DNA of 4,352 nt from a virus (Duplodnaviria; Heunggongvirae; Uroviricota; Caudoviricetes): IMG/VR virus record IMGVR_UViG_2713896777_000025; one strand, written 5' to 3'. The notes beneath the pieces were generated by a model, which was not told where the DNA came from, ran no database searches, and was given only the letters and a program-made list of their open reading frames with translations. The translations under genes were made by a program, and so were the position numbers. Shown piece after piece: positions 1 through 4,352 of this stretch (its first letter is position 1; the number at the start of each line of letters is the position of its first letter).

Positions 1-324
1 GCTGTGCATCCCTTCGGGGTAATAATTCGCATCAGTTACACCCGCCGCCGCCAGCTTGTGCGCAATGGCATTAATATTTGATGGCCTGATGTGGCCTGCC
101 TTGTACAGCCGGACACAATAGCGCCCCTCGTCGATGATTCTCAGGTCTGCCAGTTCATCCAGTTGATCATCAGCCAGCACAACGGGAGGCACATTATCGC
201 CAGCCAGTCGCCCGTCCTGTTCCTGCCACTGTTTCGCATGTGCCCAGGCATCACTACCCGCAAAAATAATGACTTCGGTCATCTTGTCGTAAGGCTGTTT
301 TTTTAAGTTCGGTGCGCTTTTCAT
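1..324 (-). CDS. Hypothetical protein, N-terminal part only (gene runs off the left edge); begins MKSAPNLKKQPYDKMTEVIIFAGSDAWAHAKQWQEQDGRLAGDNVPPVVLADDQLDELADLRIIDEGRYCVRLYKAGHIRPSNINAIAHKLAAAGVTDANYYPEGMHS
   Basis: Minus-strand frame is open from ATG 324-322 to position 1 (108 codons, no stop); it is missing from the ORF track only because it has no in-window stop. The ATG overlaps the TGA stop of the upstream gene (ATGA at 324-321) and has GGGG (revcomp of 331-334) 6 nt upstream. An in-frame alternative ATG lies at 282-280. Function unknown. Confidence 0.5.
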   Translation of the reverse strand, partial: MKSAPNLKKQPYDKMTEVIIFAGSDAWAHAKQWQEQDGRLAGDNVPPVVLADDQLDELADLRIIDEGRYCVRLYKAGHIRPSNINAIAHKLAAAGVTDANYYPEGMHS

Positions 325-620
325 TTCTTGCCCCTGAATCCGTTAATCATGGTTTTCAGCTTCTGGATGTTTGCCCGTGCCCTGGCGTTGCTGGTGGGCA
401 CGTTATGCGGCGCGGTCTGTACCAGAGAAAAATCACGCCGGAACTGATAAACAGGCATCACGCAATCATATTCGTAACCTTCACGGCGGTAGGTTACGCG
501 CCGTTCTTCCACGCCCTTAATCATTACCGTGCCGCCGTACTGGTCGCGGTAAATATCACCGCGCGTAAATTTAGGGTGAGTGTTGCCACTGGCAGTTAAG
601 CCAGAATATTTAAGTTTCAT
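321..620 (-). CDS. Hypothetical small protein (99 aa, MKLKYSGLTASGNTHPKF...)
   Basis: ORF-track ORF. Stop TGA at 323-321 overlaps the start of the next gene; its own ATG (620-618) overlaps the TGA (619-617) of the preceding ORF, so the genes look translationally coupled. The RBS region is hidden by the N-run at 622-688, so the true start could lie further upstream. Confidence 0.5.
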   Translation of the reverse strand: MKLKYSGLTASGNTHPKFTRGDIYRDQYGGTVMIKGVEERRVTYRREGYEYDCVMPVYQFRRDFSLVQTAPHNVPTSNARARANIQKLKTMINGFRGKK

Positions 621-820
621 TNNNNNNNNNNNNNNNNNNNNNNNNNNNNNNNNNNNNNNNNNNNNNNNNNNNNNNNNNNNNNNNNNNNTCTTGATTTTTG
701 TTTGTCGCGTTCATTGTCGCCAAGTGTTTCAAGCCATATGCGCAATATTTCGTACATACCTTCAGCGTAAGCAAGGGCACTAAATGCGCGGTCTATTGTT
801 TCGTGGTAAATATCACGCAT
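617..820 (-). CDS. Hypothetical small protein (~67 aa, MRDIYHETIDRAFSALAYAEGMYEILRIWLETLGDNERDKQKSR..., C-terminal third masked by N-run)
   Basis: ATG at 820-818 lies 1 nt after the TAA stop (824-822) of the upstream gene, with a G-rich stretch (GGACGGGG) 6 nt upstream. The frame runs into the 67-nt N-run and exits exactly onto a TGA that overlaps the next ATG. Acceptance depends on the N-run length being true. Confidence 0.4.
   Translation of the reverse strand: MRDIYHETIDRAFSALAYAEGMYEILRIWLETLGDNERDKQKSRXXXXXXXXXXXXXXXXXXXXXXX
622..688. other. Run of 67 N (masked or unresolved bases)
   Basis: Directly visible. Falls at the junction of two overlapping minus-strand genes. Confidence 1.
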
Positions 821-821
821 A

Positions 822-1043
822 TTAATCCCCGTCCGTTGTTTTTCTTAAAACAGCTTCTGTCACGAAATCAGCATAGTTAGCGGCAATATCAAGAATATTT
901 AGCCCTGTATCTCTGTGCTCATCAGTGCAAAGAAAGAAAAAAGCCACCCGCATAATTTCAGATATTGACGAAAGCGCATCAGCCGCATCATCAGGAACGC
1001 CGGAAAATTCTTGTTTCAGGGAATTAAAACGATCATCACGCAT
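822..1043 (-). CDS. Hypothetical small protein (73 aa, MRDDRFNSLKQEFSGVPDDAADALSSISEIMRVAFFFLCTDEHRDTGLNILDIAANYADFVTEAVLRKTTDGD)
   Basis: Same frame as ORF-track ORF 822..1091; I prefer the ATG at 1043-1041 because it sits 2 nt after a G8 tract (revcomp of C-run 1046-1053) that can act as the SD, and it overlaps the stop of the upstream gene (ATGCGTGA). Alternative starts at 1055 and 1091 lack an RBS. Confidence 0.5.
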   Translation of the reverse strand: MRDDRFNSLKQEFSGVPDDAADALSSISEIMRVAFFFLCTDEHRDTGLNILDIAANYADFVTEAVLRKTTDGD

Positions 1044-1257
1044 AACCCCCCCCATTTTCACAATCAGCAACAAGAATATTTTTAGCGTCATTCAGCGACC
1101 GCGTTGCGATGTATCGGATACATTCCAGGGCGAACTGTGTCCGGTCTTTCTGTTCTTCTCCCTGCGCAAGCTCTGCAGTGCATTCAATATCGATAAGCGC
1201 GTGCATCAGCGTAGTGAGCGCGGCGGCTGCTGCGTCCGGTGTGGTTTTATTGCACAT
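1036..1257 (-). CDS. Hypothetical small acidic protein (73 aa, MCNKTTPDAAAAALTTLMHALIDIECTAELAQGEEQKDRTQFALECIRYIATRSLNDAKNILVADCENGGGYA)
   Basis: Same frame as ORF-track ORF 1036..1299; start placed at ATG 1257-1255, which has a consensus SD AGGAGG (revcomp of 1264-1269) 6 nt upstream and overlaps the last codons of the preceding gene. Stop TGA at 1038-1036. Confidence 0.6.
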   Translation of the reverse strand: MCNKTTPDAAAAALTTLMHALIDIECTAELAQGEEQKDRTQFALECIRYIATRSLNDAKNILVADCENGGGYA

Positions 1258-1807
1258 GGCACACCTCCTGACGAATACGGGCGGCGAATACAGCAACACA
1301 ACCGGACGGGCAACGGCTACGCGCTTCGCGTTCCGTCCAGGCGGTTACGTGGATGATTTGATGTTCTGACGCGCCAAAGATGATAAAGCGCCAGAGAAAG
1401 GCGGTTTGAGAATGTACAAGGGTAGGGATAGTAGCCATGTTGGCAGCCTCCTCAGTGTGGTTAAGATAACCGCCACCGGAAACGCCAATTTCGCTGGTGG
1501 CGGACTGTACAGGGTTGGCGTAACCGGACACTGAAGAAACCGGCGCGGATTGCTCCGCCCCCGTACAGCCCACCATTGATAAGGTGTGACTATGCGGCAC
1601 AAAAAAACACGCGGGGCGCGTGTTATGCGCTTCAGTTTTGCCCAGGACGCCAATCCCGGCACCCGTTTTATGAGGTGCGCGGGAATCATAGCTATTTTCG
1701 ACACTGGCGATCAACTGGTTTTTTTCTCCGATATTCAGGGCCAGAAAACGCCACACAAAGGCCGTTTGTGTGTGTACAAGGTGTGGTATATGATTTACGG
1801 CAACCAT
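1247..1807 (-). CDS. Small protein (186 aa) with an internal tandem duplication of an N-terminal module (HIPHLVHTQTAFVWRFLALNIGEKNQLI / TIPTLVHSQTAFLWRFIIFGASEHQII); possibly related to Icd-like proteins of P4-type elements (unverified)
   Basis: ATG at 1807-1805 with SD AGGAG (revcomp of 1813-1817) 5 nt upstream; frame open to TAA at 1249-1247. A second in-frame ATG at 1438-1436 has its own strong SD GAGGAGG (revcomp of 1447-1453, 8-nt spacer) and begins a 63-aa copy of the module. The longer ORF-track call 1247..2323 is rejected because it reads antisense through the RHH gene and the operator region. Confidence 0.55.
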   Translation of the reverse strand: MVAVNHIPHLVHTQTAFVWRFLALNIGEKNQLIASVENSYDSRAPHKTGAGIGVLGKTEAHNTRPACFFVPHSHTLSMVGCTGAEQSAPVSSVSGYANPVQSATSEIGVSGGGYLNHTEEAANMATIPTLVHSQTAFLWRFIIFGASEHQIIHVTAWTEREARSRCPSGCVAVFAARIRQEVCHVQ

Positions 1808-1836
1808 AACGGCTCCTAGTTTACGTTGTTGGTTAG

Positions 1837-2407: not shown

Positions 2408-2614
2408 TTAAGCAGCCGTTCCGCGTGCTTCCTCTTCGCGTTCTTTCTGCCAGGACAACACATCATCCTCATACCATCCGCGACGGCGTAAACCAACGCG
2501 AAAACCCTGCGGAAATTCTCCGGCGTTGATCATGCTTTGCAGCGTGCTGTCTGCCTTGATGTGGATAATTTTTTTTACTTCCTGGCGAAAGATAATTTTT
2601 CTGATTGCTTCCAT
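2408..2614 (-). CDS. alpA: AlpA/Vis-family phage transcriptional regulator (68 aa)
   Basis: ORF-track ORF. The sequence RQEVKKIIHIKADSTLQSMINAGEFPQGFRVGLRRRGWYEDDVLSWQ matches the AlpA family pattern (HTH, then G-x-FP-x-P/G-x-K/R-hG-x-R-x-x-GW, then W). SD AAGGT lies 8 nt upstream of ATG 2614. It sits downstream of int on the same strand, as in CP4-57-type islands. Confidence 0.85.
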   Translation of the reverse strand: MEAIRKIIFRQEVKKIIHIKADSTLQSMINAGEFPQGFRVGLRRRGWYEDDVLSWQKEREEEARGTAA

Positions 2615-3110: not shown

Positions 3111-4352
3111 CTACACGGCTCGGATACCCCTTTTACCACTGGCGAGGGTTACGCCCGTCGCCGCAGCCTCGACAAATTCGCCCCACCAGCGCATCAGCAC
3201 GATGCGTTTTTCTATGTAGTTGCTCCGGTTGTATGCCCGTCTAACTTCGTTGGTGTCGACGTGGGCAAGTGCCGCCTCTATTACGTCCGGCTCGAATCCT
3301 TCCTCGTTCGCTGCTGTGCTGAATATGGCGCGTAATCCATGAGACACCAGCACGCCAGCGAATCCCATACGCCGCAATGCTGCGTTAGCTGTCTGGCTGT
3401 TCATCGGCTGCTGTGGGTCTTTCAGACTTGGGAAAACGTAATTGCGGTGGTGGCTGATTGGTTTCATGGCCTCCAGCACCGCCATAGCCTGACCGGAAAG
3501 CGGGATAACGTGATCCCTGCGCATCTTCATGCGTCCGGCAGGTATCGTCCATTGCTTCGCGTCCAGGTTGATTTCATCCCACCGCGTTGATGACGCTTCG
3601 GCGGGACGGGTTACGGTCAGTAACTGCCATTCAATCAGTAATCTGGTCTGCCGTTCTGTTGCCGATACTGATAAAGCCTGCATAAGCTCGGGCAGCTGTT
3701 CGGGGCGGATTGTTGGCATATGTTTTTTTACAGGTGAGGGAAACGCCTTACGCACATTCATAGCCGGATTGGCATCAATCAGCCCACTGTTGGCGGCGTA
3801 ATCCATTACCTCATTAACGCGCTGTAAAACCCGCTTGAGTGTTTCCAGGTTGCCGCGCTCCTTGATGGGGGTAAGCACTTCAACGAACCTTCGGGCGGTG
3901 AGGGTATCTATTGGCGTGTTGCCGATGAACGGGAATACATATTTATCCAGCGAACGCCAGATGTCTTTAATCGTGTTGGGGGCCAGATTCTGGCTGATTT
4001 TCACCTGGTACCATGCCGCCGCCACATTTTCGAACGTGTTCCCTTGTCTTCGGGCCTCTGTCTCTCTTTTTTGCCTCTCGTGGTCCTGCGGGTCAGTTCC
4101 GGCACTGATTAACGTCCTGTACTCGCTACGGCGTTTTCTGGCATCAGCCAGGGAAACATCTTCAAGCGATCCAAAACTCAGCAATATTCTTTTTTTGTCC
4201 GATGGTCGGTAGTAGGAAAATCTCCAGAGTTTTGATCCAGACGGTTTGACCAGGAGAAAAAGCCCTCCGCCGTCCTGCAGGGTGTACTCCTTTTGCGCTG
4301 GTCTGGCTGCTTTGATCTGCACTGTGGTTAATGGGTGTGTTTTTCTCGCCAT
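3111..4352 (-). CDS. int: P4-family tyrosine recombinase / phage integrase (413 aa, complete; ATG is the last 3 bases of the window)
   Basis: ORF-track ORF. N-terminal arm-binding-type region (LTTVQIKAARPAQKEYTLQDGGGLFLLVKPSGSKLWRFSYY) and a C-terminal catalytic domain with the conserved residues in order: R (LTVTRPAE), K (GRMKMRR), H-x-x-R (SHGLRAIF), H (ALAHVD), Y (RAYNRSNY). Stop TAG at 3113-3111. Confidence 0.95.
   Translation of the reverse strand: MARKTHPLTTVQIKAARPAQKEYTLQDGGGLFLLVKPSGSKLWRFSYYRPSDKKRILLSFGSLEDVSLADARKRRSEYRTLISAGTDPQDHERQKRETEARRQGNTFENVAAAWYQVKISQNLAPNTIKDIWRSLDKYVFPFIGNTPIDTLTARRFVEVLTPIKERGNLETLKRVLQRVNEVMDYAANSGLIDANPAMNVRKAFPSPVKKHMPTIRPEQLPELMQALSVSATERQTRLLIEWQLLTVTRPAEASSTRWDEINLDAKQWTIPAGRMKMRRDHVIPLSGQAMAVLEAMKPISHHRNYVFPSLKDPQQPMNSQTANAALRRMGFAGVLVSHGLRAIFSTAANEEGFEPDVIEAALAHVDTNEVRRAYNRSNYIEKRIVLMRWWGEFVEAAATGVTLASGKRGIRAV

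What the first reader, a model, noticed from the sequence alone, without database searches (positions are those of the whole stretch)
1036..1055. G8 homopolymer exactly at the overlap of two small genes
An 8-nt G run (minus strand; C-run 1046..1053 on plus) lies inside the last codons of the gene at 1036..1257 (encoding ...ENGGGYA) and immediately upstream of the ATG of the gene at 822..1043, which is in the +1 frame. Loss of one G would fuse the two ORFs into a single protein (...ENGGVMRDDRF...). Runs of this length are prone to slipped-strand mispairing and transcriptional or ribosomal slippage, so the tract could act as a phase-variable or programmed-frameshift switch between two separate peptides and a fusion. 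It may also just be the SD for the downstream gene.
Basis: seen in the sequence. Interest (0 to 1): 0.4.

Follow-up and report, generated by a model that had tools for sequence, protein, structure and literature searches.

The report
Slippery G-run between two satellite genes
An eight-G run, probably the ribosome-binding site of the second of two small overlapping genes in an E. coli phage-satellite island, is a real mutational hot spot: natural copies carry 4 to 12 Gs, so the genes are separate in some strains and fused in others, with no sign of programmed frameshifting or fast switching.

Summary
C8 lies at 1046-1053 (G8 on the minus strand). Gene 1 (1036-1257) ends ENGGGYA*, gene 2 (822-1043) starts 2 nt after the run, and they overlap by ATGCGTGA.

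The window is the early operon of a PICI/cf-PICI-type phage satellite of E. coli.

Tract length is not invariant. Finished genomes carry G7 (O157:H7 EC4115, one 154-aa ORF), G8 (CFT073, Nissle, this window), G9 (O26:H11 11368) and G10 (O111:H8 8234). Exact-protein look-ups find G5-G12 in the window's allele background and G4-G11 in the O157-type one. Of 143 metagenome and IMG/VR copies, 50% are split as here, 24% are split in the other frame and 27% are fused. Ten of 19 identical-flank haplotypes hold more than one length.

The two halves are separate gene modules in distant satellites, where a canonical GGAGG motif occupies the place of the G-run. The two-gene state therefore looks ancestral, the run looks like the Shine-Dalgarno element of gene 2, and fusions look like slippage products.

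Clones are stable (Nissle, CFT073, ATCC 25922 and O157:H7 each keep one length). No frameshift-stimulating RNA structure follows the run. Verdict: a polymorphic slippage hot spot that toggles fusion and fission. Fast phase variation and recoding are unsupported, and protein function is unknown.

The parts
1046..1053 (-). Poly-G tract (G8 on the minus strand). It encodes Gly-Gly-Gly in the tail of gene 1 and is the Shine-Dalgarno-like element 2 nt upstream of the gene 2 ATG. It is a hypermutable site.
   Evidence: sequence. (lengths G4-G12 in relatives). (anti-SD pairing -11.6 kcal/mol).
1036..1257 (-). Gene 1, the N-module: 73 aa, ending ...CENGGGYA*. PHROG phrog_5146, function unknown.
   Evidence: (WP_001372127.1). 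dN/dS is 0.24-0.41. It stands alone next to other partner genes in L154 and L159.
822..1043 (-). Gene 2, the C-module: 73 aa, starting MRDDRFNSLK. PHROG phrog_24341, function unknown.
   Evidence: (WP_001204070.1). dN/dS is 0.19-0.35, and the ORF is intact in all three frame states. It stands alone in L155, L158 and L009.
1036..1043 (-). 8-nt stop/start overlap ATGCGTGA, followed by a second in-frame TGA. This is a translational-coupling type of junction.
   Evidence: The same ATGnnTRA overlap occurs at junctions in L009, L154, L158 and L159.
1262..1270 (-). Canonical SD CAGGAGGTG of gene 1, lying inside the last codons (..QEV..) of the upstream Icd-like gene. It is the counterpart of the G-run at the previous junction.
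   Evidence: -15.2 kcal/mol.
1247..1438 (-). Icd-like small gene (63 aa), the first gene of the small-gene run.
   Evidence: WP_150322679.1, host cell division inhibitor Icd-like.
617..820 (-). Gene 3 (77 aa in unmasked copies, phrog_2196). It is partly masked by N (621-688) in the window.
   Evidence: (WP_001204970.1).
321..620 (-). DUF4222 gene. It precedes the RepA-type helicase, which runs off the window.
   Evidence: PF13973, 1.6e-24.
2408..2614 (-). AlpA-like helix-turn-helix regulator of the satellite.
   Evidence: a weak Phage_AlpA hit at 17.9 bits, below the 21-bit cut-off. (helix-turn-helix transcriptional regulator).
3111..4352 (-). Tyrosine integrase, sitting next to tRNA-Pro/yejM in complete genomes.

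Best explanation
The G8 run is the Shine-Dalgarno-like ribosome-binding element of gene 2. It lies inside the last codons of gene 1. The two genes form a translationally coupled pair (ATGCGTGA overlap) in the early small-gene operon of a PICI/cf-PICI-type phage satellite of E. coli.

Because this SD has become a G/C homopolymer of about 7-10 nt, replication slippage changes its length far more often than the flanks change. Natural copies therefore fall into three heritable states:
- (A) Two genes with the 8-nt overlap (lengths 5, 8, 11). The window is in this state, which is the commonest.
- (B) Two genes, with gene 1 ending in a different tail ...GGGLCVMIVLIP* and overlapping gene 2 by 28 nt (lengths 6, 9, 12).
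- (C) One in-frame fusion of 144-155 aa joined by a Gly-Gly(-Gly)-Val linker (lengths 4, 7, 10).

Gene 2 keeps its own ATG and SD in all three states, and both halves stay under purifying selection. The change is therefore tolerated, and each state persists stably in a clonal lineage.

Shown here: the anatomy, the polymorphism, the recurrence on identical backgrounds, the modularity of the two halves, the SD equivalence and the clonal stability. Inferred: that slippage during replication is the mechanism, that the run really works as the SD, that gene 2 is translated separately in all states, and that the states are near-neutral.
For: Anatomy.

Length polymorphism in otherwise identical DNA:
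- G8 versus G9 is the only difference seen in the 101-nt junction alignment; the full 701/702-nt matches are 100.0% and 99.9% identical.
- G7, G8, G9 and G10 occur in complete genomes, with PGAP calling one fused ORF (154, 148 or 144 aa), two ORFs, or 'frameshifted'.
- Finished genomes CFT073 (G8), O26 11368 (G9), EC4115 (G7) and strain 042 (155-aa G10 form) all differ.

Exact-sequence protein counts:
- Window allele background: G5 11, G6 5, G7 258, G8 >=1000, G9 >=1000, G10 152, G11 47, G12 8 contigs.
- O157-type background: G4 1, G5 24, G6 70, G7 >=1000, G8 912, G9 140, G10 41, G11 19.

Independent collections: among 143 metagenome and IMG/VR copies there are 71 in state A, 34 in state B and 38 fused.

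Recurrence: 10 of 19 haplotypes with identical 2 x 220-nt flanks carry 2-3 lengths. That is at least 11 changes against 0 substitutions in 440 nt.

The two-gene state is ancestral:
- N-module homologues are followed by an unrelated gene (L154, L159).
- C-module homologues are preceded by unrelated genes (L155, L158).
- In E. ruysiae L009 an extra 128-aa gene separates the two modules.

SD role:
- The run pairs with the 16S 3' end at -11.6 kcal/mol, against -9.1 to -15.2 for neighbouring genes.
- Relatives have CAGGAGGTGGGG, CAGGAGGT or GGAGGG at the same place.
- L009 has its own G9 run 5 nt before the same ATGCGTGA, behind a different upstream gene.

Tolerance: dN/dS is 0.19-0.41 for both halves in every state. 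The C-module ORF is intact in 38/40 fused, 66/70 state-A and 31/34 state-B copies. Interrupted tracts of length 8 (for example GGGGGTGG, which still encodes GGG) exist.

Clonal stability: the listed Nissle-labelled assemblies (5, plus near-identical lab derivatives) are all G8 except EcN_Sk, which is G7. The ATCC 25922-labelled (5) and CFT073 (3) assemblies are all G8, 7 O55:H7 genomes are G8, and the sampled O157:H7 genomes are all G7.
Against: - No expression data exist. Whether the run acts as the SD, and whether gene 2 is made separately from fused alleles, is inferred.
- The protein counts are inflated by clonal over-sampling (outbreak sequencing) and are capped at 1000. Fusion counts require both halves to be identical, whereas split counts require only one half.
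- Some +/-1 calls in draft, long-read or low-coverage assemblies may be errors. EcN_Sk versus the other Nissle assemblies is a possible example.
- The high frequency of all three frames, together with further variable homopolymers in the same operon of relatives, could equally mean the variability itself is selected.
- The conserved core ...ADCENGG(G)VMRDDRFNSLKQEF... across otherwise mosaic alleles is compatible with a functional fused protein.
Confidence: 0.7

Rival explanations
1. Adaptive contingency (phase-variable) locus. The homopolymer is maintained because stochastic switching between split and fused proteins, or between gene 1 tails, gives the satellite or its host alternative phenotypes, for example towards different helper phages.
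For: - All three frame states are frequent in two allele backgrounds and in independent collections.
- Changes recur on identical haplotypes.
- The run persists although synonymous GGN codons or a GGAGG SD would do the same job.
- L009 has a G9 run at the equivalent place behind a different gene.
- Relatives carry two more variable homopolymers in the same operon: an A8/A7 run that gives a 217-221-aa triple fusion, and a second G7-G9 tract.
Against: - Clones are stable across many independent assemblies.
- O157:H7 and O55:H7 are each fixed for one length.
- Interrupted ('locked') tracts occur.
- E. coli has efficient mismatch repair, so a G8 run is expected to switch far more slowly than classical contingency loci. 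This rests on general knowledge and was not measured here.
- No phenotype is known.
Confidence: 0.15
2. A single ancestral gene of about 145 aa. On this reading the window's two ORFs are the halves of a frameshifted pseudogene, which is how PGAP flags the G9 allele in 2013C-4225.
For: - Most of the 120 best database hits to the virtual fusion are full-length 144-151-aa proteins.
- PHROGs has a full-length family, phrog_2512.
- PGAP writes 'frameshifted'.
- AlphaFold gives a two-hairpin helical protein with the Gly linker in the loop, at low confidence.
Against: - The two modules occur apart, with other neighbours, in more distant satellites. Each ends or starts at the same boundary.
- The split state has the operon's standard 8-nt overlap and SD design.
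- The C-module ORF and the dN/dS of both halves are as good in split as in fused copies.
- The split state is the most frequent. It is the one carried by CFT073, in the island that matches the published, mobilisable PICI EcCICFT073 (paper 10.1101/2022.09.08.507074).
Confidence: 0.1
3. Programmed recoding. Ribosomal +1 frameshifting (-1 in G9 alleles) or RNA-polymerase slippage on the G-run makes a fixed proportion of fusion protein from split alleles.
For: - A run of GGG codons lets tRNA-Gly re-pair in any frame.
- The run is itself SD-like, and an upstream SD stimulates +1 shifting in prfB (general knowledge).
- The fusion frame is open and encodes a protein that exists elsewhere.
Against: - No downstream stimulatory structure: MFE -16.8 kcal/mol against a shuffle mean of -16.9, z = 0.03.
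- No slow or stop codon lies at the shift site for a +1 event.
- The arrangement is not conserved. In-frame, +1 and -1 alleles coexist, which is the opposite of what is seen at dnaX or prfB.
- Documented bacterial transcriptional slippage involves A/T runs of 9 or more (Baranov et al. 2005, as cited in PMC4066793).
Confidence: 0.04
4. Sequencing or assembly artefact. The true tract has one length, and the variation comes from homopolymer errors.
For: G/C homopolymers are error-prone in PacBio and Nanopore consensus sequences. One Nissle-derived assembly (EcN_Sk) disagrees with all the others.
Against: - Four different lengths occur in finished reference genomes (CFT073, 11368, EC4115, 042).
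- Lengths are lineage-consistent: 7 O55:H7 genomes are G8, O157:H7 genomes are G7, and all listed ATCC 25922-labelled and CFT073 assemblies are G8.
- Hundreds to thousands of contigs support each of G7, G8 and G9.
- Lengths up to +/-3-4 from the mode occur.
Confidence: 0.01

Closest known systems
Homopolymeric-tract polymorphism or 'microevolution', as described for Bordetella pertussis (PMC1891110), and homopolymeric tracts within coding genes in prokaryotes generally (PMC2831843)
   Same: A G/C homopolymer inside coding sequence differs in length between closely related strains. This shifts the reading frame while staying stable within a clone.
   Different: Here the tract sits exactly on a stop/start overlap and doubles as the SD of the next gene. 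The outcome is fusion or fission of two genes, not a simple ON/OFF truncation. The host is a phage satellite of E. coli.
Poly-G contingency loci of Campylobacter, Neisseria and Haemophilus (for example the Campylobacter phasome, PMC6321876)
   Same: A poly-G tract of 7-10 nt with slipped-strand length change and three frame states. Some Campylobacter and Helicobacter tracts likewise join two annotated ORFs into one (from memory, not checked here).
   Different: Those loci switch at high frequency within cultures and have known phenotypes. Here independent assemblies of the same clone agree, and no phenotype is known.
Translationally coupled overlapping genes (ATGA or ATGnnTGA overlaps with the SD inside the upstream gene) in phage and satellite operons
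   Same: An 8-nt overlap and a purine-rich element 2-10 nt upstream of the ATG. The same design is found at every junction of this operon and in relatives.
   Different: The SD is a pure G homopolymer instead of GGAGG. This makes the frame relation between the coupled genes mutable.
Programmed frameshift sites of E. coli (prfB +1, dnaX -1, IS elements; PMC4066793)
   Same: A slippery run within the coding sequence, an SD-like sequence close to the shift site, and an open alternative frame that encodes a longer product.
   Different: There is no conserved out-of-frame arrangement, no stimulatory structure and no hungry or stop codon at the shift site. In-frame alleles are common in nature.
PICI and capsid-forming PICI satellites EcCICFT073 and EcCIEDL933 (10.1101/2022.09.08.507074; PMC11773190)
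   Same: The same element type: integrase, AlpA-like regulator, small genes, DUF4222, replication protein, then terS and capsid genes. CFT073 and O157:H7 carry the same gene pair.
   Different: The published work I could read does not mention these small genes or the tract. They remain 'hypothetical proteins'.

Membership tests
Simple-sequence-repeat phase-variable (contingency) locus | A homopolymer or short repeat of at least about 7 units within or just upstream of an ORF | tested here: met
   G8 at 1046-1053, inside gene 1 and 2 nt upstream of the gene 2 ATG.
Simple-sequence-repeat phase-variable (contingency) locus | Repeat number differs between closely related strains and changes recurrently | tested here: met
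   G4-G12 are seen. Ten of 19 identical-flank haplotypes carry more than one length.
Simple-sequence-repeat phase-variable (contingency) locus | A length change alters the expressed product | tested here: met
   Three predicted products: 73 aa plus 73 aa, 80 aa plus 73 aa, or 144-145 aa. All exist in databases. This is a prediction from sequence only.
Simple-sequence-repeat phase-variable (contingency) locus | High-frequency, reversible switching within a clonal population | tested here: not met
   Tested by proxy only. The listed Nissle-labelled (5, plus near-identical lab derivatives), ATCC 25922-labelled (5) and CFT073 (3) assemblies are all G8, with one exception (EcN_Sk, G7). Sampled O157:H7 genomes are all G7 and 7 O55:H7 genomes are G8. 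No read-level data are available.
Simple-sequence-repeat phase-variable (contingency) locus | A phenotype associated with the switch | not testable with these tools
   Function is unknown: no Pfam, PADLOC or PDB hit, and the PHROGs are of unknown function.
Programmed ribosomal frameshift site | A slippery sequence that allows tRNA re-pairing in the new frame | tested here: met
   GGG GGG GG allows tRNA-Gly to re-pair in the +1 or -1 frame.
Programmed ribosomal frameshift site | A stimulatory element (downstream structure, or a slow or stop codon at the site) | tested here: not met
   The 86 nt downstream fold no better than shuffles (z = 0.03). The codons after the run are UAU GCG, with no rare or stop codon in the A site at the run.
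Programmed ribosomal frameshift site | The out-of-frame arrangement is conserved among homologues | tested here: not met
   Fused in-frame alleles make up 27% of copies, and both out-of-frame states also occur.
Translationally coupled overlapping gene pair | The stop of the upstream gene overlaps or abuts the start of the downstream gene | tested here: met
   ATGCGTGA at 1036-1043. The same overlap type occurs at junctions in L009, L154, L158 and L159.
Translationally coupled overlapping gene pair | An SD-like element within the upstream coding sequence at a suitable distance from the ATG | tested here: met
   Anti-SD duplex of -11.6 kcal/mol, against -9.1 to -15.2 for neighbouring genes. A canonical GGAGG occupies the same place in relatives.
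Translationally coupled overlapping gene pair | Downstream translation depends on upstream translation | not testable with these tools
   This needs reporter assays.
PICI / capsid-forming PICI phage satellite | Integrase, AlpA-type regulator and replication (pri/rep) genes in a roughly 10-15-kb island at a fixed attachment site | tested here: met
   Integrase next to tRNA-Pro/yejM, HTH regulator (Phage_AlpA hit below the Pfam cut-off), and DUF4222 followed by a RepA-family helicase.
PICI / capsid-forming PICI phage satellite | Its own packaging and capsid module (terS, major capsid), for the capsid-forming class | tested here: met
   The 100% identical copy L001 continues into a terminase small subunit and a phage major capsid protein. 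This region lies outside the window.
PICI / capsid-forming PICI phage satellite | Induction and mobilisation by a helper phage | not testable with these tools
   Shown in the literature only for EcCIEDL933 and EcCICFT073 (10.1101/2022.09.08.507074).

The most novel reading that the evidence does not exclude
The early operon of E. coli PICI/cf-PICI satellites may carry a small 'phasome'. Its elements would be the G-run studied here, an A8/A7 run at the preceding junction that yields a triple fusion, and a second G7-G9 tract in an alternative third gene. These would be maintained by selection, so that a population of satellites stochastically expresses split or fused versions of small helical proteins with different activities towards helper phages or the host. 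This would be SSR-based contingency switching in a phage satellite of a mismatch-repair-proficient enterobacterium.
Probability: 0.12. Interest if true: 0.65.

Novelty: new member of a known kind. Interest (0 to 1): 0.35.

Why it matters
Annotation. Thousands of E. coli genomes describe the same locus in different ways: as two hypothetical genes, as one longer gene, or as a 'frameshifted' pseudogene. Three separate PHROG families exist for what is one locus. Knowing that a G-run SD toggles the frame resolves this. It also argues against treating the split form as a pseudogene.

Biology. The locus is a clean natural example of gene fusion and fission driven by a homopolymeric ribosome-binding site. 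It sits in the experimentally tractable satellites EcCICFT073 (split, G8) and, probably, EcCIEDL933 (the O157:H7 element is fused, G7). Isogenic comparison of the two states is therefore directly feasible and could reveal what these conserved small proteins do.

Typing. The tract is also a potential marker that separates lineages, for example O55:H7 (G8) from O157:H7 (G7). If the variation proves neutral, the finding is an ordinary mutational hot spot.

Tried and rejected
- Paralogy of the two 73-aa genes: BLASTP finds no alignment. Rejected.
- Function by homology: no Pfam, PADLOC or PDB-sequence hit for either half or for the fusion, and no tblastn match in 50,697 phage records. PHROGs gives only families of unknown function.
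- Structure: AlphaFold2 on a 13-sequence alignment gave mean pLDDT 57 and pTM 0.44. The model is all-helical, with the Gly linker in a low-confidence loop. It is too poor for a fold search, so none was run.
A narrower alignment found only Shigella flexneri and Escherichia ruysiae in 185,579 species genomes. The all-protein HMMER scan found only 38 clusters at 50% identity. The family is therefore tiny, and conservation of the tract outside Escherichia/Shigella cannot be assessed.
- The search for related loci in IMG/VR with the distant homologues P0239 and P0247 gave nothing useful.
- Frameshift stimulator: no structure was found.
- Literature: four full-text searches found no paper that mentions this tract or these genes. 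The cf-PICI and EcCIMP1 papers do not discuss them.
- Identity-band counts from the short BLAST queries include partial 100% matches. I therefore treat them as approximate (about 30-35 G8 and about 115-120 G9 complete genomes with the window's flanks).
- A phylogeny-aware count of switches within O26 was not attempted, because too few loci can be fetched.
Full report
**1. The observation**

The window has C8 at 1046-1053. On the minus strand the sequence reads GAA AAT GGG GGG GGT TAT GCG TGA. The 73-aa ORF 1036-1257 therefore ends ...CENGGGYA*. The next 73-aa ORF (822-1043) starts at the ATG two bases after the run, in the +1 frame, and the two share ATGCGTGA. It is the only G/C run of 6 or more in the window. 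One such run in 4.3 kb is not by itself remarkable: 0.13 are expected, and 19 of 200 shuffles have one.

**2. Context**

The window is 100% identical over 701 nt to chromosomal islands of Shiga-toxigenic E. coli. These islands sit next to tRNA-Pro/yejM. In order they encode:
- an integrase;
- an AlpA-like HTH regulator;
- Icd-like and Ash-like remnants;
- a run of small overlapping genes, which includes the two genes in question;
- a DUF4222 protein and a RepA-family helicase;
- further on, a small terminase subunit and a major capsid protein.

This is the gene layout of PICI and capsid-forming PICI phage satellites (paper 10.1101/2022.09.08.507074). The same gene pair lies in the CFT073 island that matches the published PICI EcCICFT073. 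It also lies in the O157:H7 island, which is probably EcCIEDL933. Neither identification was tested directly.

**3. The tract is polymorphic**

Hits that are 99.9% identical differ from the window by one extra G. In the 101-nt junction alignment, that G is the only difference between the window and O26:H11 11368. There, gene 1 is annotated as 80 aa.

Complete genomes show four lengths:

| Length | Genomes | Annotation |
|---|---|---|
| G7 | O157:H7 EC4115, EcN_Sk, Shigella flexneri | one ORF of 144-154 aa |
| G8 | this window, CFT073, Nissle | two ORFs |
| G9 | O26 11368, 2013C-4225 | two ORFs; PGAP writes 'frameshifted' for 2013C-4225 |
| G10 | O111:H8 8234 | one ORF of 148 aa |

I then looked up the exact protein predicted for each tract length:

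| Background | G4 | G5 | G6 | G7 | G8 | G9 | G10 | G11 | G12 | G13 |
|---|---|---|---|---|---|---|---|---|---|---|
| Window's alleles | not queried | 11 | 5 | 258 | >=1000 | >=1000 | 152 | 47 | 8 | 0 |
| O157-type alleles | 1 | 24 | 70 | >=1000 | 912 | 140 | 41 | 19 | not queried | not queried |

Counts are contigs and are capped at 1000.

A pattern scan of JGI/ENA metagenome contigs and of IMG/VR gave 143 further copies:
- 71 in the window's frame (lengths 8 or 11, including interrupted runs such as GGGGGTGG);
- 34 in the other split frame (lengths 9 or 12);
- 38 fused (lengths 7 or 10).

I grouped the copies by identical 220-nt flanks on both sides. Ten of the 19 haplotypes with two or more members hold two or three lengths. 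That is at least 11 length changes where 440 flanking bases had none.

The tract is therefore a genuine slippage hot spot. Sequencing error cannot explain it, for two reasons:
- Four different lengths occur in finished reference genomes.
- Lengths are lineage-consistent. Seven O55:H7 genomes are G8, the sampled O157:H7 genomes are G7, and all listed assemblies labelled ATCC 25922 and CFT073 are G8.

**4. It is not fast**

The same data show clonal stability. The five listed Nissle-labelled assemblies, plus near-identical laboratory derivatives, are all G8. Only EcN_Sk is G7, which may be a real mutant or an error. At laboratory and outbreak time scales the state is inherited faithfully. This does not fit classical high-frequency phase variation. 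Read-level data were not available, so this is a proxy test.

**5. Which state is ancestral, and what is the run for?**

A search with the virtual fusion finds mostly full-length 144-151-aa proteins among the best hits. That first suggested a single split gene. The exhaustive HMMER scan and the DNA around distant homologues say otherwise:
- N-module homologues (41-51% identity) are stand-alone genes followed by an unrelated gene that starts MHKIPFDV (L154, L159).
- C-module homologues (37-49% identity) are stand-alone genes preceded by unrelated genes (L155, L158).
- In Escherichia ruysiae a 128-aa gene lies between the two modules (L009).

In all of these the C-module starts at the same Met, and the junctions are ATGA or ATGnnTRA overlaps. 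At the position of the G-run these relatives have a canonical SD:
- L154 has CAGGAGGTGGGG-C-ATG.
- L155 has CAGGAGGTACGTCC-ATG.
- L158 has GGAGGGCTGGTC-ATG.

Gene 1 of the window is itself preceded by CAGGAGGTG, inside the tail of the Icd-like gene (1262-1270). L009 has its own G9 run 5 nt before the same ATGCGTGA, behind a different upstream gene.

The G-run pairs with the 3' end of 16S rRNA at -11.6 kcal/mol. This is within the range of the neighbouring SDs, -9.1 to -15.2.

I conclude that the two-gene, translationally coupled arrangement seen in the window is the original design. The run is the SD of gene 2 that has drifted into a homopolymer, and the fused ORFs are slippage derivatives.

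**6. Consequences of the three states**

Gene 2 keeps its ATG and its SD in every state. Only the tail of gene 1 changes: GGGYA*, GGGLCVMIVLIP*, or read-through into gene 2 via GG(G)V.

Both halves have dN/dS of 0.19-0.41 in fused, split-A and split-B copies alike. The C-module ORF is intact in 38/40, 66/70 and 31/34 copies respectively. No state behaves like a decaying pseudogene.

This fits near-neutral toggling. It does not exclude a selected switch.

**7. Recoding**

From the window's G8 allele a fusion would need a +1 shift. Three observations argue against this:
- No slow or stop codon lies at the run.
- The 86 nt downstream fold no better than shuffles (z = 0.03).
- The out-of-frame arrangement is not conserved (section 3).

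Low-level RNA-polymerase slippage on G8 cannot be excluded computationally.

**8. Function**

Function is unknown. There is no Pfam, PADLOC, PDB or phage-genome match. PHROGs holds three unknown-function families: the full-length phrog_2512, the N half phrog_5146 and the C half phrog_24341. The AlphaFold model is helical but of low confidence. The family is confined to Escherichia and Shigella satellites.

**9. Comparison and novelty**

This is a homopolymeric-tract frameshift polymorphism of a known kind. Comparable cases are Bordetella pertussis microevolution (PMC1891110), coding homopolymeric tracts in prokaryotes (PMC2831843) and Campylobacter poly-G loci (PMC6321876).

Its particular twist is that the tract is the ribosome-binding site at a stop/start overlap, so length change produces gene fusion or fission. 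I found no paper describing it. I rate it a new member of a known kind, of moderate interest.

The most novel reading still open is that the operon's several variable homopolymers are a selected contingency system in a phage satellite. Relatives carry an A8/A7 run that gives a 217-221-aa triple fusion, and a second G7-G9 tract. I put that reading at about 0.12.

Noticed in passing
L007 513-520 (Nissle 1917; the same in CFT073, L157). Not present in the window.: An A8 run lies 25 nt upstream of the gene 1 ATG, in the tail of the preceding 76-aa gene (phrog_1478). Database proteins of 217-221 aa (P0048; P0087, on 52 contigs) read ...NEKNAEGYMCNKTT. This corresponds to an A7 version that fuses the upstream gene, gene 1 and gene 2 into one ORF.
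   Followed up: partly
L043 441, L044 4777, L092 3889, L104 4007, L116 3601, L122 747, L132 3808, L025 and L089 (about 343 nt downstream of the studied tract, same strand): A second variable poly-G tract (G7, G8 or G9) lies inside an alternative third gene (...VHAEQGGDLFSAF...). Six of 9 copies are in frame and 3 are out of frame.
   Followed up: partly
Window 1262-1270 (-); L154 420-436; L155 2487-2500; L009 2122-2147: Every junction of this small-gene operon places the SD CAGGAGGT(G) inside the last codons of the upstream gene. Unrelated upstream proteins therefore all end in ...QEV.. (Icd-like ..RQEVCHVQ*, ..IQEVGHA*, ..FQEVRP*, ..VQEVHHA*).
   Followed up: yes
L009 2122-2508 and 2486-2494 (Escherichia ruysiae): An extra 128-aa gene lies between the N- and C-modules and ends ...IQGGGKHA*, with its own G9 run 5 nt before the C-module ATG. 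Its middle contains ENGVEVSRERLRDDC, a partial copy of the module boundary. The 167-aa protein P0234 looks like a deletion fusion of this gene with the C-module.
   Followed up: partly
Alignment A2; proteins P0001, P0074, P0096: The gene pair is a recombination mosaic. Two very different N-module cores and two C-module tails occur in all combinations around an invariant centre, ...ADCENGG(G)VMRDDRFNSLKQEF.... There are 99 distinct 440-nt haplotypes among 139 copies.
   Followed up: partly
Window 1440-1810 (-): Tandemly repeated Icd-like and Ash-like fragments lie here. PGAP marks them as incomplete pseudogenes in the identical copy L001 (2925-3440 and 3594-3932). This suggests past duplication and decay upstream of the small-gene run.
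   Followed up: no
Window 621-688 and 2197-2255: Two masked N runs. Coordinates beyond the second one are offset by 83 nt relative to the otherwise identical L001, so the mask or the copy differs in length there. The first run hides the end of gene 3 and the SD of the DUF4222 gene.
   Followed up: no
L005 538-986 (NZ_CP027577), compared with L002 4144-4580: RefSeq annotates the same G9 allele in two ways: as one 'frameshifted' pseudogene in one genome, and as two intact hypothetical genes in another.
   Followed up: yes
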